DNA from: Escherchia phage Stokescottia
Sequence record: OR896820.1
Strand: one strand, 5' to 3'
Length of the DNA stretch: 64,000 nt
The stretch's first letter is position 1, and each line of letters starts with the position of its first letter. Position numbers and translations under genes: made by a program. The notes under the pieces are model-generated. The model was given only the letters and a program-made list of their open reading frames with translations. It ran no database searches and was not told the origin of the DNA. Below, piece by piece: positions 4,123-64,000 of this stretch.

Positions 4123-5642
4123 ATATCGCTGGCCTGTTCACCTGTTGAATTTTCAGCTTTGTCTTTCTTAGCACGTTTAGGTTGAGCCGGCTTATCCTTC
4201 TCAATAGGGATAATGAACTCAGCTTCCATTTGAGATATATCTTCCATTGCTAGGTTGGTAGTGTTATCCATCCGCAGGGTTTCCCAGTTCATTTTAGGCA
4301 TAAACTTCACGCTATCAGAAGAACGAGTCTTAACGAAGTCAAACATAATAGCACCTTGACCATTATCAGCTTTTGCAGCATTAAGATTAGCAGCCATGTC
4401 AGCGGAATCAAGAATCCCCTTTGACATACGTGTTCTACCATCTTGATCAATCTGGTAAGGAGCTACACCAGCCACATTATGTTTCTGGCAGATAGATTTG
4501 AAAGACGAGCTGACAACCATCTGTTCTTTCCAGTCATACATATCAATGGTTTTAGAGTCTGGAAGTCTGGTCTGGTTAATATAGTCCAGTAAAGCTACTG
4601 TAACTTTATCTCCGTATCTAGCAACTAATTTATTTAATTCTACGTCAACTGTTGTAATAGACAGCTCAGGGTCATAAACAATAATCATAGGAGTATGTAG
4701 CTCATACCCTTCTATTAGCTTACTCTCCATATCGTAGAAATCACTCATCTTAGCCATTGTGTACTGTTTAACGAAGCTATCGAAAAGCTCTTCACCACCA
4801 TTAAACATTCTAGCTCTAGTTCTGGCTAATCTCAATAGAGCTGCACCTTCTAGAGTATTATTACGCATTGCTAATGCTGATACACCAGCTAACATGGCTA
4901 GATTACGTCTAAATACTTCATGTTCTTTCATCTCAATTGAGAAGTATGGAGCAATATCCCCATTCAAATATTGCTGAACCTGTATGTTTGAACAGATAAT
5001 GGATTTACCAGTACCACGCCAACCACCAAGCAGTAACGTTTCTGTGCGAGCTAAACCAATTTGAGCGTCGAACTCATTACAAATACCAAGAGCGATTAAG
5101 TTCAGTTTGGTATCTTCTTCTCTCTGGAAAATACGCATGTTATCTGCGTTGAATACTTTTCCAGTATTCGTTACTTTCTCTTCTAATTTTAAGTGAAGGG
5201 AGGCAACTCGGTTGAGAATTTCTCCCTGATCCAGCATTGTTAAATCTTGAAGCACGTCTGTTTCTAGAAGCTTCAGGAATAAATCCTGTGTATATTCAGC
5301 CTCTAGGACTTCAAGTGCCTGTTCCATGCTCACTTCTGGAATTTGAGTGTTAGCTAAGACGACTAGAGCTTGAGAAAGGCGGGCGTTCCTATTAGCCTCA
5401 AGCATCAGTGCGTCAATGGACGGCATTGTGTTATATTTTTTATAATAATTCTGGACGGCTTGGTAAATTGAGGAGAAAGCGTCATTAAAATGATCTTTAT
5501 GCAGTTTTGAGAATGTTTCCAATGCTATTTGCTTCTGTTCAGAAGCTAGAAGCATCTTCAACACTACAGCTTGCACGTTAAACAAGGTCATTCTCCTTTG
5601 CACGCTTTCGTGCCTTCTAAATGCAAAAAGGGGAAGGAGCAT
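4119..5642 (-). CDS. replicative DNA helicase, DnaB-like
   Basis: 507 aa; Walker A GGWRGTGKS; 4-nt overlap with primase; start uncertain because a terminator-like hairpin overlaps the first codons. Confidence 0.7.
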   Translation of the reverse strand: MLLPLFAFRRHESVQRRMTLFNVQAVVLKMLLASEQKQIALETFSKLHKDHFNDAFSSIYQAVQNYYKKYNTMPSIDALMLEANRNARLSQALVVLANTQIPEVSMEQALEVLEAEYTQDLFLKLLETDVLQDLTMLDQGEILNRVASLHLKLEEKVTNTGKVFNADNMRIFQREEDTKLNLIALGICNEFDAQIGLARTETLLLGGWRGTGKSIICSNIQVQQYLNGDIAPYFSIEMKEHEVFRRNLAMLAGVSALAMRNNTLEGAALLRLARTRARMFNGGEELFDSFVKQYTMAKMSDFYDMESKLIEGYELHTPMIIVYDPELSITTVDVELNKLVARYGDKVTVALLDYINQTRLPDSKTIDMYDWKEQMVVSSSFKSICQKHNVAGVAPYQIDQDGRTRMSKGILDSADMAANLNAAKADNGQGAIMFDFVKTRSSDSVKFMPKMNWETLRMDNTTNLAMEDISQMEAEFIIPIEKDKPAQPKRAKKDKAENSTGEQASDI

Positions 5643-5673: not shown

Positions 5674-6441
5674 TTATTCAGCAGCCGCAGCTTTTGCATC
5701 CAGTTTAGCACGCTTAGCGGCACCATCATAGTCCTTAGCAACCAGACCACGACGAGACAGCATAGATTTAACACCACGCTCAGACTTACCAGTTTTCTCA
5801 GCGATCTCAGCAACAGTCATGTTAACCAGATCTAGACCTTCTAACAGATCTTCACGAGTTTTAGCACTTGAAGTTTCCTGTACCGGCATAGCAGCAATAC
5901 GACCTTCACGAAGCAGGCTCAGAGCTTTACCACGGATCTGCTTAATATTGCGACCGAAGTGAGCAGCGATAGCTTCAATAGTAGCACCAGCAACAACCTG
6001 ATTAACAAAATCAGTTTCTTCATCCGGAGTGAAGGAACGAACAGCAGCAGCTTTTTCAGTTGGTTTAACAGAAGCGGTCATTTCCAGACTCAGAATCTTA
6101 CCTTGTACCTGCTTAGCACCGAACTGACCACCAGCTACAGCAGCAGCGATTTCAGCATAGGTATACTGACCAGCATGAGCATTCAGGAAATCAACCAGTT
6201 CAGCTTCCTGCTCAGGAGTCCACGGGGATTTCTGTACTTCGTTAGCTTTCTGTACTTCAAAACCTTCTTTACGCAGTTTAGAGCCAACAGAGCGAGCGGT
6301 AACGTCTTTGCCAGTTTCAGCGGCCAGTTCAGCAGCGATAGCAGCTACTTGTTCTTGAGAGATTACAGCAACACCCAGAGCAGTGGCTTTTGCTTTCAGA
6401 GACTCGGTTACACCTTCTACGTTCCAGTTCAGTTTAGACAT
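5674..6441 (-). CDS. putative DNA-binding protein with four tandem ~40-aa HTH-like repeats
   Basis: 255 aa, Ala-rich; recurring pattern ...EIAxxxGxxxxxVxxKxxSL... Confidence 0.45.
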   Translation of the reverse strand: MSKLNWNVEGVTESLKAKATALGVAVISQEQVAAIAAELAAETGKDVTARSVGSKLRKEGFEVQKANEVQKSPWTPEQEAELVDFLNAHAGQYTYAEIAAAVAGGQFGAKQVQGKILSLEMTASVKPTEKAAAVRSFTPDEETDFVNQVVAGATIEAIAAHFGRNIKQIRGKALSLLREGRIAAMPVQETSSAKTREDLLEGLDLVNMTVAEIAEKTGKSERGVKSMLSRRGLVAKDYDGAAKRAKLDAKAAAAE

Positions 6442-7406: not shown

Positions 7407-8378
7407 TTAATCGTATACTCGCTCTACTATGCACGGGATTACACCACCAGCACGAATTACTCGAATCTGGCAACCGATCTCTAGATCAAGAGAGTTAATA
7501 TAATCAACGTTATTAAGAGTCGCTTTAACAATTGTAGCATCATCAATAATTACCGGTTCGAAATAACCAACTGGAGTTACTTTACCAGAAGCCCCTACCT
7601 GCCACTCAACTTTAGTAAGAGTTGTAATCTCGCCTTCTTCATCCTCTTTAATAGCGAATGCTCCACGAGGGAATTTATTAGTCCAGCCTTCTCGGAAGAA
7701 TTTGTTGTTGTCATTAATACGAACAACTTTACCGTCCGTCGGAATCCATTTAAAGAATGAACGCACATTAACAACTGTTAAGAAGTCTTCATTCTCTAGC
7801 CAAAGCATATCTTTTAAATATGCTTCTGTAATACCTACAGATTCAGCAGAACACTGGATACCATATGCAACGAAGATTAAACCACCTTCCCCGATACGTT
7901 GTACGAAATCATCGCTATCTTTGAGGTTAATAGCACCAGAGGCAAAGTTACGTTTATTCTCTACTTCTTTTGTAATTAGAACTTCACCAGTGATTTGAGT
8001 AGGTACTTTTTGGGAAATCTTTTTAGGGATGTTCAGCAATCTTACGTTGCTTGTGACATCATTCCCTAGAATACCGTTACCACGAGTTAGTGCTTGAACA
8101 AATTCTCCATTAATATATAACAGAGAAATCGCACAACCATCTAATTTATCAGTTTCTACCTGACCTAATGGGTTAAACGGAGGTTTATCTCCACGATTAT
8201 AATAAACTTTCTGTAAAGAATACATACGATACAGATGTGGAATATCACCCTTAGGCCCGATCTCTTCTTCTAACGGGAAGCGTTTTACCAGGCAATCATA
8301 CTCCTCATCAGAGATTAAAGACATGCCTTGATAATATGCTTCTTGACAGCGTTTAATAAATTCTTTTACATTAGTCAT
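7407..8378 (-). CDS. ligA: NAD-dependent DNA ligase, N-terminal adenylation/OB part
   Basis: 323 aa; active-site KxDG motif in TDKLDGCAISLLY; separate ORF from the Zn/BRCT half. Confidence 0.8.
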   Translation of the reverse strand: MTNVKEFIKRCQEAYYQGMSLISDEEYDCLVKRFPLEEEIGPKGDIPHLYRMYSLQKVYYNRGDKPPFNPLGQVETDKLDGCAISLLYINGEFVQALTRGNGILGNDVTSNVRLLNIPKKISQKVPTQITGEVLITKEVENKRNFASGAINLKDSDDFVQRIGEGGLIFVAYGIQCSAESVGITEAYLKDMLWLENEDFLTVVNVRSFFKWIPTDGKVVRINDNNKFFREGWTNKFPRGAFAIKEDEEGEITTLTKVEWQVGASGKVTPVGYFEPVIIDDATIVKATLNNVDYINSLDLEIGCQIRVIRAGGVIPCIVERVYD

Positions 8379-8757: not shown

Positions 8758-9047
8758 AGTTCTTCAGCTCGTTTCTGTACTTCATGTAAAACCTCAGATT
8801 CGCTAAGAATCTGTGTAAATGCATAGAAAAGCTGTGATGTTGTTTCTAGGGTGTAAGGAAAAGAGAAGCCAGATTTCGTTGGAAACCATTCATCATTAAT
8901 ATCAAGAAGCCAGTAACGAATACCCATGTATAGATTCCCACGAAATTCAGATACTGTTAATCTTACTTGTTCTCCCTCCTTCTCCCAAAGTATGATGGAC
9001 TGGTCATCAACGTGTCCTTCATAGTTTTGATTTACCTGTTCGCTCAT
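8739..9047 (-). CDS. hypothetical protein
   Basis: 102-aa ORF. Confidence 0.4.
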   Translation of the reverse strand: MSEQVNQNYEGHVDDQSIILWEKEGEQVRLTVSEFRGNLYMGIRYWLLDINDEWFPTKSGFSFPYTLETTSQLFYAFTQILSESEVLHEVQKRAEELKAKNA

Positions 9048-9065
9048 TTACATATCCCAAATACA

Positions 9066-9097: not shown

Positions 9098-9394
9098 TTA
9101 TCGGCCTACTGGAGAAGCACGATCTAACTCTGATTGGAGGCTAGTCACACGACGGACTTTCTCGACAGGAATAAAACGGAAGCTATCATTAGTACGAGAG
9201 AAGACAAGGATTTCATCATCTTTCGCTTTACGAATACGTTCACGTTTAATACGCTCAGCCAGATATTTATCTTGGGCTGGATCAAATTCCATCGTACCCT
9301 GAAGGTACGTGGTTCCTTTCTGACGAAGTTTCTCGTAATGAAGATAAAACTCACCAAATTTTTCACATTGTGCGATAATTTCAGCTTTGGTCAT
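9098..9394 (-). CDS. hypothetical protein
   Basis: 98-aa ORF. Confidence 0.4.
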   Translation of the reverse strand: MTKAEIIAQCEKFGEFYLHYEKLRQKGTTYLQGTMEFDPAQDKYLAERIKRERIRKAKDDEILVFSRTNDSFRFIPVEKVRRVTSLQSELDRASPVGR

Positions 9395-9430
9395 AACTGT
9401 ATTCCTTTTGTTGGTGGATTTATCTAAAAA

Positions 9431-9841
9431 TTACTTAGTGATAGCTCGGATTGCTTCTGCCAGATGAGCGGCTGCTTTACCGGTCAGTTTGTCGATAATT
9501 GCATCATCCAGAAAATCTGGTGCTAAGCCAGCATCAGAAAATGCTGAACGAAGATCGGCATGAGCTTGGGCTTTGGAAGTACGAGAACCACCAGAAGCTT
9601 TTTCTCCAGTAGATGCGCTAGATTTAGAAGCAGAGCCAGCAGCTTTCTTGATATACAAACCTGCTTTAGTCAGCTTCATACGAAAACCGTTCGGAGTTAC
9701 ACCATTTTCCTGGGCAATTTCGCTAACAATTTCCATGCTAACACCCGGACGTTCATCCTCTGGGAATTGCTCCATACGAGCAACGTATTCGGAAGACATT
9801 TTTTCGAACAGTTCATCAGTCCACTGAGTTGGAGTAGTCAT
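9431..9841 (-). CDS. hypothetical protein
   Basis: 136-aa ORF, Ala/Ser-rich C-terminus. Confidence 0.4.
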   Translation of the reverse strand: MTTPTQWTDELFEKMSSEYVARMEQFPEDERPGVSMEIVSEIAQENGVTPNGFRMKLTKAGLYIKKAAGSASKSSASTGEKASGGSRTSKAQAHADLRSAFSDAGLAPDFLDDAIIDKLTGKAAAHLAEAIRAITK

Positions 9842-9944
9842 ATTTTATATTTCCTTAATTAAGAATTAAACAGAATAGTTCTTTCAAACTATGAGAATAT
9901 TATATCAAGAATAATAGGATTAAGCAACTGAAATTTTTCTGTAG

Positions 9945-10220
9945 TTACTCCACCAGGCCAACAGCGAGCATATCATCAATGCTGGCAATCTCCCAATCGT
10001 CGGCAATAGCTTCGCATACTGTTAACGTAACAACCTCACTATAGGGATAATTACCAGCTACCCAGGTATGTTGGGTAACTACATCCAGATCAGTATCCAA
10101 AGTTAATAATACTAAACCGTTATTATCGTTATTCCAACTTTTACGATATACGGTTTTTGTTTCACCATCTTTGAGCAAATCTGTTAGCTTACTCACGGCG
10201 TTTTCCTTTTTCTTTATCAA
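9945..10220 (-). CDS. hypothetical protein
   Basis: 91-aa ORF. Confidence 0.35.
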   Translation of the reverse strand: MIKKKENAVSKLTDLLKDGETKTVYRKSWNNDNNGLVLLTLDTDLDVVTQHTWVAGNYPYSEVVTLTVCEAIADDWEIASIDDMLAVGLVE

Positions 10221-10893
10221 GTTTCAGGGCAGCCTTAACAGCTTCGTTAATCAACGTAATAATTTCTTCACGAGTCCACTTGTATCCTAGAGATTTTACG
10301 TCTACCCCTAGTTTTTCCAGATGTTTAACAGAAGCCAGCTCGTAATTCATATAATGGACGTTCTGTTGTTTGCCTTCTGATAGAAGCCATACACGGTAGC
10401 AACCAACAGGATTATCCATTGCTTTTTTGATTTCACCGATACACTGGTATCCAGGGACCCAAACAAGCTCACCAACTGCAAATTCTTCTGCTACAGCATC
10501 ATCAGGAATAATTGGAGGATTCAATGGATCTACAATATCGTTCAAACGAAGTAGAGCACCATATCGTTCCAGAACGGATTTAACCATTGCTACAGAGCGG
10601 TAATTACGATCGGCAATTTCTTCGAAAGAATCACCAGATAAATACTGTTCAATAACGTTGGCTAACTCGATGCCTTCAATTAGTGTGCCACGTTTCTTTT
10701 TCTTCATTTCGGCAACTTGAATTTGGCGATCTTGCCACTCTTCAATCATCCTTTCCATAGTTGGATTGGATGATACGCCGAGCATTTCACATGCTGCTTT
10801 CTTAGTACCACCGTTCTCCAGATGCTCTATAACCTTTTTAAAGACTTCATCCGGGATTTCATGGATATGTTTCTTTCTACGAGAACCAGCCAT
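10189..10893 (-). CDS. hypothetical protein with N-terminal HTH-like motif
   Basis: 234 aa; GTKKAACEMLGVSSNPTMERMIEEW resembles a helix-turn-helix. Confidence 0.4.
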   Translation of the reverse strand: MAGSRRKKHIHEIPDEVFKKVIEHLENGGTKKAACEMLGVSSNPTMERMIEEWQDRQIQVAEMKKKKRGTLIEGIELANVIEQYLSGDSFEEIADRNYRSVAMVKSVLERYGALLRLNDIVDPLNPPIIPDDAVAEEFAVGELVWVPGYQCIGEIKKAMDNPVGCYRVWLLSEGKQQNVHYMNYELASVKHLEKLGVDVKSLGYKWTREEIITLINEAVKAALKLDKEKGKRRE

Positions 10894-26974: not shown

Positions 26975-27450
26975 TGTCGGTTTTCCACATTTACACAGAT
27001 GGTGCTTGTAAGTCTAACCCAGGTCCAGGTGCTTGGGGTTTTATTGTCTATGATGATAACGACGATCGTTTAGGTTCTAAATCTGGTTATAATCCTAAAA
27101 CTACAAATAATGAGATGGAACTCACAGCTATTGTAGAAGCTCTACGTTGGTCCGTTAAAAAAGATAATAGACCAATTGCTATCTATACTGACTCTGCTTA
27201 TTGCAAAAACGGCATGGAAAGTTGGATGTTTTCTTGGCAAAGGAAAGGCTGGAAGAAAGCAGATGGTGAAGTTCCTCTTAATCTAGAACTTTGGCAGGAA
27301 GCATTTAAATTAACACAGCAGTATATCAACTTTCATAATACTAATCCTACCTTTATTAAGGTTAAAGGACATTCTGGTATTAGTGGTAATGAAGCTGTAG
27401 ATGCATTGTGTAATACTGTTATTACTGAGCAAGAACTTGCCGAGATGTGA
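26974..27450 (+). CDS. rnh: ribonuclease H
   Basis: RNase H1 signature HIYTDGACKSNPGPGAWG; ATG at 26974 after GGGAGG. Confidence 0.85.
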   Translation: MSVFHIYTDGACKSNPGPGAWGFIVYDDNDDRLGSKSGYNPKTTNNEMELTAIVEALRWSVKKDNRPIAIYTDSAYCKNGMESWMFSWQRKGWKKADGEVPLNLELWQEAFKLTQQYINFHNTNPTFIKVKGHSGISGNEAVDALCNTVITEQELAEM

Positions 27451-60816: not shown

Positions 60817-61099
60817 CTATATTATATGGTCAAACCCATTAGCAGCACTTAGTAACAAACTATTTAAAACAACGTGGGGCTATAATGAAATAGACTTAGG
60901 CAGTCGCCCCGTACCAAATACATGCTCACTAGTCCCAGATCTGTATAAAGTAATAATAAATGATGTAGAGTATTTAGTTGACGAATTTGACAGAAGGTAT
61001 ATACTAGAGTGCATTTACGATAACAACACATCAATGAATGAACTGATAGATCATGCCCAAATGTGTGATAAAAGCTGGATGTTAATATGGAAATCATAG
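60809..61099 (+). CDS. hypothetical protein
   Basis: 96-aa ORF. Confidence 0.4.
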   Translation: MSSYIIWSNPLAALSNKLFKTTWGYNEIDLGSRPVPNTCSLVPDLYKVIINDVEYLVDEFDRRYILECIYDNNTSMNELIDHAQMCDKSWMLIWKS

Positions 61100-61320
61100 C
61101 AATTATTTTAGTAGTTATGTTATTCATCGTAGTACTTGTATCTTTTGCTATTATGCGTAGAGCTAGAGAACTAGCAGAAGATCTAATAAAATTACGTGGT
61201 GAGGTAGCGGGTCTCAAACTACAACGTGAAGCTCTCAAGCTATTCGTAGCTCAAGGTAGTGTAGAGCATACAGCGGAAGACTTCATCGTATATCTTAAAC
61301 GTTACATGGGAGTTAAATAA
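61087..61320 (+). CDS. hypothetical membrane protein
   Basis: 77 aa, N-terminal TM. Confidence 0.4.
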   Translation: MEIIAIILVVMLFIVVLVSFAIMRRARELAEDLIKLRGEVAGLKLQREALKLFVAQGSVEHTAEDFIVYLKRYMGVK

Positions 61321-61505
61321 TGGAAACACTTTTTCTTTTAATGCTCGTAGGTTCTCTGTTACTAATACTAGCACTTCTACTAATCTGCAACATTCTTAAT
61401 AATAAGAATCTAGAGCTAAAGTGGGAGAATCAAATCCTTAACCGTGAACTTAAACAATATAACATTGCAGCCCATAAACTGTTAGACAAACTGGAGAATA
61501 TATAA
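61320..61505 (+). CDS. hypothetical membrane protein
   Basis: 61 aa, N-terminal TM. Confidence 0.35.
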   Translation: METLFLLMLVGSLLLILALLLICNILNNKNLELKWENQILNRELKQYNIAAHKLLDKLENI

Positions 61506-62119
61506 TGTTTACACAACAACCTATTCAAGTAGTACCGGATCATGAACTGAATACGTGGGATTATAGCTTTAAAGATTTAACCGCTACTGTACAATTTAAG
61601 TCTATGAAGCTAACATTTGCACACAATGACCTTAGAGCATGTAAAGATCTTGAGGATAAGCTCGAAGATGCTCGTAAGATTTTTGGCAAGGCTCGCATCC
61701 CAGCTGATAATCTAATTAACGCATTAATCGATGCAGGGTACAAACTTGTGAAGACTGAGGTGAACCGCCCTAGTACTCCAGTGACTATTAGAGATCCGTG
61801 GCAGTCCGGGACAATCTCAATGCTGAATAACTCCGATAAAAGATTAATGTCGGATATGCACAATGTTCCTTGTGGGGGTGTGGTAAGTAGTACGCAGTCA
61901 TATAAGTTTGTGGAAGATTACGGCCCTTCTGTACAGTTGAAACATACTCAAGAAGCTTTTGAATCTGATATGCGAAGCGTAGCACCTGCGGATGCTGGAG
62001 TTTCTAGGAGTTCTGTTTGTACTATTCATTTTAATAATCCTAATAAACATGGAAGTTTAGAAGATGCTATTATGGAGGCGTTGGGAGCTGCTATTAATGA
62101 AGATAAGAGGGGTAATTAA
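61505..62119 (+). CDS. hypothetical protein
   Basis: 204-aa ORF. Confidence 0.5.
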   Translation: MFTQQPIQVVPDHELNTWDYSFKDLTATVQFKSMKLTFAHNDLRACKDLEDKLEDARKIFGKARIPADNLINALIDAGYKLVKTEVNRPSTPVTIRDPWQSGTISMLNNSDKRLMSDMHNVPCGGVVSSTQSYKFVEDYGPSVQLKHTQEAFESDMRSVAPADAGVSRSSVCTIHFNNPNKHGSLEDAIMEALGAAINEDKRGN

Positions 62120-63009
62120 TGGGATTTTATAGTAATAGAAAACCAAAAGGTGTAACTGGTAAATTCGCAGTTGAAGAAAGACCTTTTCCACCAGTCGATG
62201 TAGAGAAACTACGTAAACTTCTAGAAATGCTAGAAGGTTGCCATGAACGTTGTTATTCTGAACTCTCTTTAAATGAAAAACGTGTTGTTGAGATGTTCTG
62301 TATTCGTTCAGCTAGAACAGCTAAAGGTACTTCTCCAAAAGATGAAGTAAAAGAATACAGAGTTCTAGTGATGCATGCTTGGGCACAACGTTTTGCAGTT
62401 CATTCGCTTCAGGAATGGTTTAATCTTCCTGCATATAAAGATTTCCATGTTTACGAAGATGAAGTTATGAATTATAATGAGTTATATGGTTTGTCCTTCA
62501 AAAAGACAGGCTCACCGATGCATGATGCACTCAATTCATTCCCTGATCATTACCTTCCAGTTCGTGAATACAGAGATCGTGAAGGAAATAAACCCTGCTT
62601 CACTATTTGGAATAAGTCTAAGACGATATCTGATCTAGATAATTATTGGTTCCGCACAAAAGAAGGATTCCTAGGAACAGAACCTTTACCTAAGGATCTC
62701 AAACCTATCCTTCCTCCTGCGAAACCTAAGCATGAAGTAACGATTGCTATTAATAGAATAATTCTAGGAGCAGATGATCTTACTAAACAAATCGCCGCAG
62801 TTATCGCAGTTCTGTTTGATGGTACAAATTCTTCTACACGTTATGAGAAGCTAACGGATAACAAATTGCAGATACCTAACGAGTTGTATGAGAGTTCGTG
62901 CAAGATCTATGATAACTTTAGTAAAGTAGATTACCCCGTGAGATCCATCAAAGAACTCATGGAGTATGCGGAGATGGGGATGAAAGGAAATCTCATGTTC
63001 GATGAATAA
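62119..63009 (+). CDS. hypothetical protein
   Basis: 296-aa ORF. Confidence 0.5.
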   Translation: MGFYSNRKPKGVTGKFAVEERPFPPVDVEKLRKLLEMLEGCHERCYSELSLNEKRVVEMFCIRSARTAKGTSPKDEVKEYRVLVMHAWAQRFAVHSLQEWFNLPAYKDFHVYEDEVMNYNELYGLSFKKTGSPMHDALNSFPDHYLPVREYRDREGNKPCFTIWNKSKTISDLDNYWFRTKEGFLGTEPLPKDLKPILPPAKPKHEVTIAINRIILGADDLTKQIAAVIAVLFDGTNSSTRYEKLTDNKLQIPNELYESSCKIYDNFSKVDYPVRSIKELMEYAEMGMKGNLMFDE

Positions 63010-63016
63010 ACTCTAC

Positions 63017-63045
63017 TTGACGTTATGATTTCTGCATGTTATAAT
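63017..63045 (+). promoter_or_regulatory. consensus-like sigma70 promoter facing the non-coding end region
   Basis: TTGACG, 17-nt spacer, TGtTATAAT; no credible ORF downstream. Confidence 0.55.
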
Positions 63046-63380
63046 AACTCTATGAAATAACATAGAATAAAGAGATCCACCCGGATACGGATGGTGGATG
63101 GGAAACTTCTATTTCCCCCGTAGCTTGTCGGAGGGCTAGGGAAATCTTAAGAAGTTTTGTACCATCTCACGCAATTCGTATCCCAGGGGTGGAGCATCTC
63201 TTCCAATCTTTGGGGATCTTATACTTAAATTAAAGGTAAAACTTTTGACCACATAATTTACATTTAAGATGATACACCGGTTGCCGCCATTCTTCCTAGG
63301 ATGGCACAACACTTTCTAGTAGACTCCTAAGTTTCTAGGAATAGTTGAACACTAACTCTAGAGTTTACACTAAACTTTAA

Positions 63381-64000
63381 ATCGGATTTGCACATGTTCT
63401 AGGGCAGTTTTTCACCTACTATAAATACCCTAGGCCGGTTTTCCTATACAGGGCGGTTATTTCTAGGAGACATTTTTTGAAAACACATTTCCAGAAATTA
63501 CTGTCGGATTTGCACATTGTGTTTCTAGAAATTTATGGTCGGATTTGCACAATTGCCTAAGTTTTCATGGACACATAATCTCCTGAAAATGGCAGCATTA
63601 TTTCGGGCCGAAGGCCCATGATTGCCTGAGTTTTTAGAGCCACAGAAATTTTCACTTGTCAAGCTATTTTGCCCCATTTTGCTAATAAAATTTTACTTTA
63701 TCTCGCCCCAAGCCCAATTAACCCAAATTATCTCAACTCTTCCCCAAAAACGCAGCAAATCAGGTGCCCCGCACCAAATATGCTGCCCCTCTAGCTTCTC
63801 CCTCTATTTTCTCTCGCTCTCTCATCTTCTCCCCAAACTCACACAATCACACGCCCTCTCATCGAAGTCACAAAAATCTTGTCGGATTCGCACATCTTAA
63901 TCCTAGAAAAACCATGTCGGATTTGCACATACCCCACAGGATTCGAACGCAGTTCGAGATTGCTGGAGTTTTTGGGAAAATTCATTGTCGGATTTGCACA
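63381..64000. repeat. array of a 14-bp GTCGGATTTGCACA motif
   Basis: Copies at 63381, 63503, 63538, 63881, 63916 and 63987; two pairs spaced exactly 35 bp; array runs to the window edge. Confidence 0.8.
63660..63870. repeat. C/T-rich low-complexity tract
   Basis: About 210 nt almost devoid of G on the plus strand, between repeat clusters. Confidence 0.6.

What the first reader, a model, noticed from the sequence alone, without database searches (positions are those of the whole stretch)
63010..64000. Iteron-like GTCGGATTTGCACA repeat array with a CT-rich tract at the window end
At least six copies of a 14-15 bp motif sit in non-coding DNA, with two pairs spaced exactly 35 bp apart (63503/63538 and 63881/63916) and each copy followed by a TCTAGAAA-like element. 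A ~210 nt polypyrimidine tract separates the clusters and a consensus-like promoter at 63017-63045 faces into the region. This looks like clustered protein-binding sites such as a replication origin, packaging or injection-control locus, or a terminal-repeat boundary. The array is cut by the window edge.
Basis: partly seen in the sequence, partly recalled or inferred. Interest (0 to 1): 0.75.

Follow-up and report, generated by a model that had tools for sequence, protein, structure and literature searches.

The report
T5 junction repeats, already described
This is the conserved cluster of 14-bp 'direct repeat D' boxes at the inner edge of the long terminal repeat of T5-like phages, beside the 'injection stop signal'; it is real but already annotated in the T5 reference genome, and what binds it is still unknown.

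Summary
The window is a T5-like coliphage/Salmonella phage (Tequintavirus), read in reverse orientation to the T5 reference. GTCGGATTTGCACA is the reverse complement of T5 'direct repeat D' (DRD), annotated in GenBank AY587007.1. The window holds copies 9, 8, 7, 6, 5 and 4, plus copy 10 inside the upstream gene. Copies 3, 2 and 1 lie just past the window end. After them come the 7.9% nick and the palindromes and DnaA boxes of the 'injection stop signal'. The motif count, the 35-bp pairs and the promoter are confirmed. The 'polypyrimidine' tract is really a C-rich, G-poor tract, and the TCTAGAAA element follows only 3 of the 5 copies that have window sequence after them. By homology the terminal-repeat boundary, which is the physical right genome end, lies at 63636|63637, inside the array. 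The same two-part layout (boxes, boundary, C-rich tract, boxes, nick) is kept in the Klebsiella, Pectobacterium and Serratia relatives examined. A replication origin is not supported. No paper I could read assigns the boxes a function. My best guess is binding sites that help the terminase recognise the genome end (confidence 0.38), and the main rival is control of two-step DNA entry. In passing I found an unannotated 133-nt hairpin just downstream of the promoter. Its structure is conserved but its sequence is not.

The parts
61849..61862 (+). DRD copy 10 (GTCGGATATGCACA, 1 mismatch) inside the ORF019 homolog (61505-62119)
   Evidence: T5 annotates 'direct repeat D copy 10' at the same place inside ORF019. 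It is kept with 0-2 mismatches in most T5-like loci.
62119..63009 (+). ORF018 homolog ('33.8 kDa early protein' of T5). It is the last gene before the non-coding junction and its function is unknown.
63017..63045 (+). Near-consensus sigma-70 promoter facing the terminal repeat
   Evidence: 11/12 with an upstream TG. It is conserved in T5 (TTGACA-17-TATCAT), Sugarland, Stubb and My1.
63070..63202 (+). Long imperfect hairpin (outer pairs 63061-63212) directly downstream of the promoter. It is a candidate structured RNA.
   Evidence: MFE -66.4 kcal/mol, z -5.1. The T5 counterpart gives z -6.0. In 17 of 17 homologs, which fall into at least 5 unalignable sequence families, the segment folds the same way and the + strand is the more stable. 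There are 3 compensatory changes within the T5 family.
63381..63394 (+). DRD copy 9 (ATCGGATTTGCACA). It is the least conserved copy.
   Evidence: mean identity 0.69; absent in L001.
63451..63459 (+). GGGCGGTTA box. T5 and relatives carry 2-3 copies of GGGCGGTT here.
63503..63516 (+). DRD copy 8
   Evidence: Identity 0.99 across 16 loci.
63538..63551 (+). DRD copy 7, 35 bp after copy 8
   Evidence: Identity 1.00.
63605..63617 (.). Invariant GC hairpin GGGCC-GAA-GGCCC, 19 bp before the repeat boundary
63636..63637 (.). Inner boundary of the terminal repeat, which is the physical right genome end in the right-hand copy. Placed by homology: TGAGTTTTTA|GAGCCACAG.
   Evidence: T5 AY587007, T5 NC_005859, SIY1lw. 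This is the most deeply conserved part of the region.
63640..63860 (+). C-rich, G-poor tract forming the innermost ~220 bp of the terminal repeat. It holds the T5 'direct repeat A' copies, and a + strand transcript of it would resemble a Rho loading (rut) site.
   Evidence: Similar tracts are present in Sugarland, My1 and Stubb.
63881..63894 (+). DRD copy 6 (GTCGGATTCGCACA; the C variant is also present in T5)
63916..63929 (+). DRD copy 5, 35 bp after copy 6 (25 bp in T5)
63987..64000 (+). DRD copy 4, ending on the last base of the window

Best explanation
Identity, which is shown: the interval is 'Repeat Region 3' of a T5-like phage. This is the conserved non-coding junction between the early genes and the inner end of the ~10-kb terminal repeat. 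GTCGGATTTGCACA is T5 'direct repeat D', copies 9 to 4, with copy 10 in the upstream gene.

Mechanism, which is inferred: the boxes are recognition sites for one sequence-specific DNA-binding protein that has not been identified. They all point the same way and form two clusters, one on each side of the exact point where the genome end is cut (63636|63637). I think they most likely belong to the cis-acting site where the packaging machinery recognises replicated T5 DNA, cuts the right genome end and starts filling the head. In phage lambda, the R sites bound by the small terminase subunit flank the cos cut site in a comparable way. On this reading the invariant GC hairpin and boundary sequence form the cut-site core. 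The six boxes inside the repeat lie on the end that would be packaged first.
For: Identity:
- The motif, its order and its spacing match the DRD features annotated in T5.
- The region gives 445 megablast hits, nearly all to T5-like phages of Salmonella and Escherichia.
Those examined are T5-like junctions.

Signs of a binding site:
- The motif edges are sharp, and an A-rich element sits 6-8 bp upstream.
- Every copy within each locus is on one strand.
- DRD columns are 0.92 identical against 0.80 for the rest of the non-coding region; 226 of 5000 random placements do as well.
- The box is nearly unchanged in Sugarland (Klebsiella), My1 (Pectobacterium) and Kamaji (Serratia), although copy number and spacing differ.

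Link to the genome end:
- The boundary lies inside the array, 86 bp after copy 7 and 244 bp before copy 6.
- The best-conserved block, 63460-63700 at 0.93-0.98 identity, holds copies 8 and 7, the GC hairpin and the boundary.
- The boundary itself is the only part that still aligns by blastn to the Klebsiella phages.
- The layout 'boxes, boundary-like sequence, C-rich tract, boxes, nick' recurs in Sugarland and in a Sugarland-like IMG/VR contig (L112). My1 keeps boxes on both sides of a C-rich tract.
- The published estimate of the injection shear point (9618) lies left of every DRD copy. If that is right, the boxes are still in the tail during the pause: a 40-ring tube with a 41.84 Å rise holds about 490 bp. 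Cytoplasmic proteins could not then reach them.

That the right end is packaged first is inferred from left-end-first injection and the general last-in-first-out rule.
Against: - No binding protein is known, and nothing here tests binding or packaging.
- There is no DRD copy at the other cut site, the left end of the repeat.
- T5 has a tandem pair of near-perfect copies inside the exo2 gene at 79 kb, far from any end.
- Copy 10 lies 1.5 kb away, inside a gene.
- Proteus phage Stubb keeps the region's architecture but has only one recognisable box.
- The GenBank records label the part inside the repeat as 'injection stop signal'.
- The 7.9% estimate could be off by a few hundred bp.
Confidence: 0.38

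Rival explanations
1. The boxes belong to the control of two-step DNA entry. A host, virion or pre-early protein such as A2 or A1 binds them and helps stop entry at ~8%, or restarts it.
For: - Copy 1 lies 54 bp from the estimated shear point (9618) and next to the 7.9% nick.
- NC_005859.1 and AY692264.1 annotate 9140-10149/10144 as the injection stop signal, which covers copies 1-6 and the C-rich tract.
- The region is more conserved than the neighbouring pre-early genes.
- Copies 7-10 exist only next to the left repeat, the end that enters first.
- Davison (2020) expects the unassigned repeats of this region to take part in stop or restart.
Against: - The stop signal has never been mapped functionally. 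[quoted passage not shown]
- If the shear estimate is right, every DRD copy is still outside the cytoplasm during the pause.
- The stop occurs without protein synthesis and does not occur in FhuA liposomes.
- This reading does not explain why the array straddles the repeat boundary, or the exo2 pair.
Confidence: 0.3
2. The interval is a transcription insulator. The strong promoter makes a structured RNA, and read-through into the terminal repeat is ended by Rho on the C-rich, G-poor tract. The DRD boxes would be roadblock or regulator sites that keep early transcription out of the pre-early region.
For: - The promoter is conserved and faces the repeat.
- A conserved hairpin lies directly downstream of it.
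- The tract has C at 30-41% and G at 6-11% over ~220 nt, the lowest G content in the window.
- A similar tract is present in distant relatives.
Against: - There are no transcript data.
- Rho loading sites need no 14-bp boxes.
- The boxes lie on both sides of the tract.
- The same tract also sits at the extreme right end of virion DNA, where there is nothing upstream to insulate.
Confidence: 0.12
3. The interval is a replication origin, with iterons or weak DnaA boxes.
For: - The last 9 bases of the box, ATTTGCACA, match the relaxed DnaA consensus TTWTNCACA at 8 of 9 positions.
- True DnaA boxes lie about 700 bp further into the repeat.
Against: - There is no consensus DnaA box in 63010-64000. 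The whole window has 6 against 7.8 expected.
- The conserved 5' half, GTCGG, is not part of a DnaA box, and the conserved C variant drops the match to 7 of 9.
- Spacing is irregular (25-343 bp).
- No Rep-type gene is recognisable beside the array.
- T5 origins map near the middle of the genome.
Confidence: 0.04
4. The boxes are leftover repeats with no function of their own, carried along inside a region conserved for other reasons.
For: - The whole 63250-64000 region is conserved at 0.80, so the excess in the DRD columns is modest (226 of 5000 random placements do as well).
- Copy 9 is dispensable in some phages.
Against: - The same 14-mer persists in four genera while copy number, spacing and flanks change.
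- Orientation is uniform.
- The spacer between copies 8 and 7 varies while the boxes do not.
Confidence: 0.06

Closest known systems
Phage T5 'direct repeat D' in 'Repeat Region 3' / injection-stop-signal region (GenBank AY587007.1 features; Davison 2020 preprint 10.1101/866236, which credits a 1987 study and the T5 genome paper)
   Same: The 14-mer, strand, order and spacing of the copies are the same. So is the position between the ORF018 homolog and the inner end of the terminal repeat, and so are the neighbours: C-rich tract, nick, palindromes and DnaA boxes.
   Different: There are only small differences. Copies 6-5 are 35 bp apart here and 25 bp apart in T5, offset by 71 against 81 bp to copy 4, so copies 6-4 span 106 bp in both. 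Copy 10 has one mismatch. The hairpin segment downstream of the promoter belongs to a different sequence family from T5's.
Phage lambda cos site: small-terminase (gpNu1) R sites flanking the cosN cut (from memory)
   Same: Several copies of one asymmetric ~15-bp box lie on both sides of the point where the genome end is cut, mostly on the side that is packaged first.
   Different: No terminase binding has been shown for T5. The T5 boxes spread over ~740 bp against ~200 bp in lambda. T5 makes blunt-type long direct terminal repeats rather than cohesive ends. Extra copies lie 1.5 kb and 69 kb away.
Phage T7 concatemer junction: short repeat arrays (SRL/SRR) beside the terminal repeat, and a promoter reading into the junction (from memory)
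   Same: Arrays of short direct repeats lie beside a direct terminal repeat, and a promoter points at the junction.
   Different: The T7 units are ~7 bp and the repeat is 160 bp. T7 uses its own RNA polymerase. T5 has boxes around one boundary only.
Plasmid or phage origin iterons, and DnaA-box arrays of oriC
   Same: Direct repeats of one short motif in non-coding DNA, with a partial match to the DnaA box.
   Different: Spacing is irregular, no Rep gene is recognisable, there are no consensus DnaA boxes in the interval, and the origin maps elsewhere.

Membership tests
T5 direct repeat D / Repeat Region 3 of T5-like phages | Motif identical to the annotated T5 DRD sequence (reverse complement TGTGCAAATCCGAC) | tested here: met
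   All 10 DRD features annotated on the left side of T5 match the window motif with 0-1 mismatch, on one strand.
T5 direct repeat D / Repeat Region 3 of T5-like phages | Position between the ORF018 homolog and the inner end of the long terminal repeat, straddling the boundary | tested here: met
   The ORF018 homolog lies at 62119-63009. The boundary sequence shared with T5 (two records) and SIY1lw is at 63636|63637.
T5 direct repeat D / Repeat Region 3 of T5-like phages | Same order and spacing of copies as in T5 and its relatives | tested here: met
   A column-by-column alignment with 16 loci puts each window copy on T5 copies 9 to 4.
T5 direct repeat D / Repeat Region 3 of T5-like phages | Continuation into copies 3-1, the 7.9% nick site, the palindromes and the DnaA-box inverted repeats | not testable with these tools
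   The window ends at copy 4. The closest relative, HK6 (95% identical), shows exactly this continuation.
Injection stop signal (functional sense) | Cis-acting site that halts DNA entry at ~8% until A1 and A2 are made | not testable with these tools
   Only annotation and position are available. No functional mapping turned up in the papers searched.
Replication-origin iterons | Regularly spaced repeats next to a gene for their initiator, with an origin mapped there | tested here: not met
   Spacing is 25-343 bp. The neighbouring genes have no known family. T5 origins map near mid-genome.
DnaA boxes | Match to TTWTNCACA | tested here: not met
   There is no consensus match in 63010-64000. The DRD box is 8 of 9 at best, or 7 of 9 in the C variant.
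Terminase recognition site (cos/pac type) | Located at the site where the genome end is cut | tested here: met
   The boundary lies inside the array, and conservation peaks there.
Terminase recognition site (cos/pac type) | Bound by the small terminase subunit and required for packaging | not testable with these tools
   No experiment was found in the library searched.
Rho-dependent terminator (rut site) | Transcribed tract of at least ~80 nt that is C-rich and G-poor | tested here: inconclusive
   The composition fits (C 30-41%, G 6-11%) and a promoter lies upstream. Neither transcription nor termination has been shown.
Any Rfam RNA family | Covariance-model match at or above the gathering score | tested here: not met
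   The only hit is a trypanosomatid snoRNA model at 19 bits against a gathering score of 35, E = 0.88.

The most novel reading that the evidence does not exclude
The 'injection stop signal region' of T5-like phages may combine two separate devices. In that case the DRD boxes, the invariant GC hairpin, the boundary sequence and the C-rich tract form the still-unmapped site where the terminase recognises and cuts the T5 genome end. The boxes would be binding sites for a terminase subunit or another late protein. The conserved promoter beside this site would make an undescribed ~150-nt hairpin RNA that keeps its shape while its sequence turns over between lineages.
Probability: 0.3. Interest if true: 0.6.

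Novelty: already known. Interest (0 to 1): 0.27.

Why it matters
Two questions about T5 remain open after about 60 years: how it halts DNA entry at 8%, and how it forms its 10-kb terminal repeats. This junction is where both must be encoded. The flagged repeats add nothing new, because they have been annotated features of the T5 reference genome since the genome paper. What may be useful is the layout: the boxes straddle the exact genome-end cut site, and they lie to the right of the published shear-point estimate. That gives a testable alternative to the usual 'injection stop' label. The unannotated promoter-plus-hairpin element deserves a look in existing T5 RNA-seq data.

Tried and rejected
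- Rfam (E-value mode) on 61000-64000 gave only a chance-level snoRNA hit.
- A DnaA consensus scan found none in the interval.
- The ORF list shows no credible gene in 63010-64000.
- I looked for a binding protein encoded next door. The ORF018 and ORF019 homologs have no Pfam hit, fall in PHROGs of unknown function and have no PDB sequence match. The word-index homolog search returned one protein, and the full HMMER search returned 16 representatives.
- The single-sequence AF2 model of the ORF018 homolog was useless, with pLDDT 32. The model built from a 16-sequence alignment reached pLDDT 69.5.
- I tested whether DRD is part of the T5 nick signal. It is not: two nick-like sites in the window share GCGCRGG and an upstream CGTAATCY box but have no DRD.
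- A multiple alignment and RNAalifold run across hairpin families failed because the arms cannot be aligned. I used per-sequence folds and within-family counts instead.
- A literal search for the motif in the paper library gave no hits. The Davison 2015 review and Zivanovic 2014 were not held.
- The exo2 DRD pair could not be tested for selection, because the gene is more than 91% identical across relatives.

Full report
**What the window is.** The last 1.1 kb gives megablast hits in 445 phage records, nearly all T5-like phages of Salmonella and Escherichia. The best is Escherichia phage HK6, a Tequintavirus, at 95.4% identity over the full query. Hits in T5-oriented records lie at about 9.3-10.4 kb on the minus strand, so the window reads T5 backwards, from the early and late genes towards the left terminal repeat.

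**Checking the observation.** GTCGGATTTGCACA occurs 8 times in the window at up to 2 mismatches, against 0.34 expected, and 0 of 100 shuffles reach 8.
- Six copies lie in the last 620 bases (63381, 63503, 63538, 63881, 63916, 63987), all on the + strand.
- A seventh lies at 61849 inside a gene, and a weak one at 26976.
- The two 35-bp pairs are exact.
- The promoter at 63017-63045 is TTGACG-17-TATAAT with an upstream TG, scoring 11/12.
- The 'polypyrimidine' tract is 60-68% pyrimidine. It is better described as C-rich (30-41%) and G-poor (6-11%), and it holds the lowest-G 220-nt stretch of the window.
- A CTAG element follows 3 of the 5 copies that have window sequence after them. CTAG is moderately enriched: 11 in the last kb against a mean of 4.3 per kb.
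- No credible ORF lies in 63010-64000.

**What it is.** The T5 record AY587007.1 annotates 'direct repeat D' copies 1-10 between 9672 and 12086. All ten match the window motif with 0-1 mismatch on the minus strand.
- A column-by-column alignment with 16 T5-like loci puts the window copies on T5 copies 9, 8, 7, 6, 5 and 4. The copy at 61849 falls on copy 10, inside the ORF019 homolog.
- In HK6 the array continues past the window end with copies 3, 2 and 1 at +31, +26 and +46. Next come AAGCGCAGGG (the 7.9% nick site), a set of palindromes and the DnaA-box inverted repeats.
- Davison's 2020 preprint calls this 'Repeat Region 3' (9194-10409). It lists nine DRD copies there and notes that the region overruns the repeat by 270 bp.
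- NC_005859.1 and AY692264.1 label 9140-10149/10144 as the 'injection stop signal'.
- The feature is therefore already described. Davison states that his own model assigns no role to these repeats. [quoted passage not shown]

**The terminal-repeat boundary.** Two T5 records and Salmonella phage SIY1lw carry both repeat copies. All three end the repeat at TGAGTTTTTA|GAGCCACAG.
- The window has this sequence at 63627-63645, which puts the boundary at 63636|63637.
- Copies 9-7 are therefore outside the repeat. The C-rich tract is its innermost ~220 bp, and copies 6-1 are inside.
- This placement rests on homology, since the window holds only one copy of the junction.

**Distribution.**
- In IMG/VR, every locus with three or more exact copies belongs to a 96-123-kb contig. 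The multi-copy loci I examined are T5-like junctions.
- Within each T5-like locus all copies are on one strand, with a recurring spacing pattern.
- The rest of the window has no other copy at 1 mismatch or fewer.
- T5 has one further tandem pair, annotated as copies 11 and 12 with 1 mismatch each, inside the exo2 gene at 79,019-79,048 and on the same strand.
- There is no copy at the left end of the repeat.

**Conservation.**
- The motif has sharp edges, with an A-rich element 6-8 bp upstream.
- Across the 16 loci, DRD columns are 0.92 identical to the window against 0.80 for other non-coding columns. That excess is modest: 226 of 5000 random block placements do as well.
- Copies 8, 7, 6 and 5 are 0.96-1.00 identical, while copy 9 is variable. 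The spacer between copies 8 and 7 varies while the boxes do not.
- The best-conserved block is 63460-63700. It holds copies 8 and 7, an invariant GGGCC-GAA-GGCCC hairpin and the boundary.
- The boundary (63631-63715) is the only piece that still aligns by blastn to the Klebsiella Sugarland-like phages.
- Sugarland, a Sugarland-like contig (L112), Pectobacterium phage My1 (A1 protein 66% identical) and Serratia phage Kamaji all keep nearly the same box, RTCGGATWTGCACW. Copy numbers and spacings differ between them. In Sugarland and L112 the layout is boxes, boundary-like sequence, C-rich tract, boxes, nick; My1 keeps boxes on both sides of a C-rich tract.
- Proteus phage Stubb (A1 42% identical) keeps the promoter, the C-rich tract, the nick site and the DnaA boxes. 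It has only one recognisable box, next to the nick.

**How it may work.** The boxes are asymmetric, have sharp edges, point one way and outlast changes in their flanks. That fits sites for a monomeric or head-to-tail-binding protein. No tool here can show binding. I weighed five readings.

1. *Genome-end recognition for packaging (confidence 0.38).* The array flanks the exact cut site, and conservation peaks there. The two-part layout is what persists between genera. The six inner copies lie on the end that should be packaged first. That last point is inferred from left-end-first injection and the usual last-in-first-out rule. The arrangement resembles the lambda R sites that flank cosN (from memory). 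Against this reading: there are no boxes at the left cut site, there is the exo2 pair, and nothing is known about terminase binding in T5.

2. *Control of two-step entry (0.30).* This is supported by position and by the existing annotation. The published shear estimate (9618), however, lies left of every copy. A 40-ring tail tube with a 41.84 Å rise holds about 490 bp. On that estimate the boxes would sit in the tail during the pause, out of reach of cytoplasmic proteins. The estimate could be off by a few hundred bp.

3. *Transcription insulation (0.12).* This rests on the conserved promoter and the Rho-loading-like C-rich tract.

4. *Replication origin or DnaA sites (0.04).* There is no consensus DnaA box in the interval, and the box is 8 of 9 at best. 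No Rep-type gene is recognisable nearby. T5 origins map near mid-genome.

5. *No function of their own (0.06).*

**Seen in passing: a conserved hairpin.** Directly downstream of the promoter the + strand folds into a 133-nt imperfect hairpin at 63070-63202, with z -5.1. The T5 segment at the same place has a quite different sequence and folds the same way, with z -6.0.
- Seventeen homologous segments fall into at least five families whose arms cannot be aligned. All of them form long hairpins, with 54-72 base pairs predicted per segment.
- In 17 of 17 the + strand is the more stable.
- Within the T5 family there are 3 double compensatory changes and 5 one-sided changes that keep pairing.
- Sugarland, My1 and Stubb also have a hairpin after the same promoter, with weaker z-scores over longer test windows.
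- None of the three T5 records annotates it, and Rfam has no match.

**Other things seen in passing.**
- The palindromes just beyond the window resemble the E. coli Fur box at 16 of 19 positions. One match at 3 mismatches or fewer occurs in each of T5 and HK6, against 0.01-0.02 expected. The Fur consensus is quoted from memory.
- The PhageTerm repeat boundaries in Sugarland and Stubb, and the repeat annotation in AY692264, fall exactly at the nick sequence rather than at the T5-type boundary.
- The window has GCGCRGG only on the + strand, three times. Two of these (34899, 51222) share a CGTAATCY box 36 nt upstream and lie where T5 major nicks 3 and 2 are expected. T5 nick 1 has the same box 37 nt upstream.

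**Verdict.** The feature is the known T5 direct repeat D array in a well-described region, so novelty is nil and interest is low. The open point is what binds the boxes. The boundary-straddling layout makes a packaging role at least as likely as the traditional injection-stop label.

Noticed in passing
window 63052-63212 (main stem 63070-63202), + strand: A long imperfect hairpin lies directly downstream of the conserved promoter (z -5.1 here; -6.0 for T5's different sequence). In 17 of 17 homologs, which fall into at least 5 unalignable sequence families, the segment folds alike and the + strand is the more stable. It is not annotated in any T5 record and has no Rfam match. It may be an undescribed structured RNA or an RNase III substrate.
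   Followed up: partly
beyond the window: L002 (HK6) 6250-6440; L003 (T5) 5469-5640 minus strand; L125 (Sugarland) 2880-2990: The 'direct repeat C / palindrome E-I' units of the injection-stop region read GATAATAAGAATCATTCTC and GATAATGAGAATCAATCTC. That is 16 of 19 matches to the E. coli Fur box as I remember it (GATAATGATAATCATTATC). There is one match per locus against 0.01-0.02 expected. Davison's preprint does not mention Fur, and a search for 'Fur box' with 'phage T5' returned one paper that I did not open.
   Followed up: partly
L125 (Sugarland) 2857; L129 (Stubb) 7416; L131 (T5 AY692264) 750: The repeat ends given in these records, from PhageTerm or by annotation, fall exactly in the AAGCGCAGG / AGGCGCAGG nick sequence next to DRD copy 1. 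They do not fall at the T5-type boundary, which Sugarland also has about 350 bp away. The strong nick may be mistaken for the genome end.
   Followed up: no
window 34899 and 51222 (+ strand); also 17342: GCGCRGG occurs three times, only on the + strand. Two sites share CGTAATCY exactly 36 nt upstream and lie where T5 major nicks 3 (32.6%) and 2 (18.5%) are expected. T5 nick 1 has the same box 37 nt upstream. This suggests a two-part nick signal, and DRD is not part of it.
   Followed up: partly
L132 (T5 AY587007) 9020-9048, i.e. 79,019-79,048: A tandem pair of near-perfect DRD boxes (annotated copies 11 and 12, 1 mismatch each, 15 bp start to start) lies inside the exo2 (D13) gene. It is on the same strand as all the other copies and about 370 bp from major nick 4. 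The gene is too conserved to tell whether the boxes are selected for themselves.
   Followed up: partly
[not shown]
   Followed up: partly
window 63430-63462; T5 L003 ~6325-6360 minus strand; L125 2056-2092; L129 ~8100-8110 minus strand: GGGCGGTT(A/C)T boxes, 1-3 copies, lie just outside the outer DRD cluster in every genus examined, including Stubb, which has lost most DRD boxes.
   Followed up: no
window 63895-63986: Relative to T5, a 10-bp piece containing CTAG sits before DRD copy 5 instead of after it. The 6-5 spacing is therefore 35 rather than 25 bp, and the 5-4 spacing 71 rather than 81 bp. The distance from copy 6 to copy 4 is 106 bp in both.
   Followed up: no
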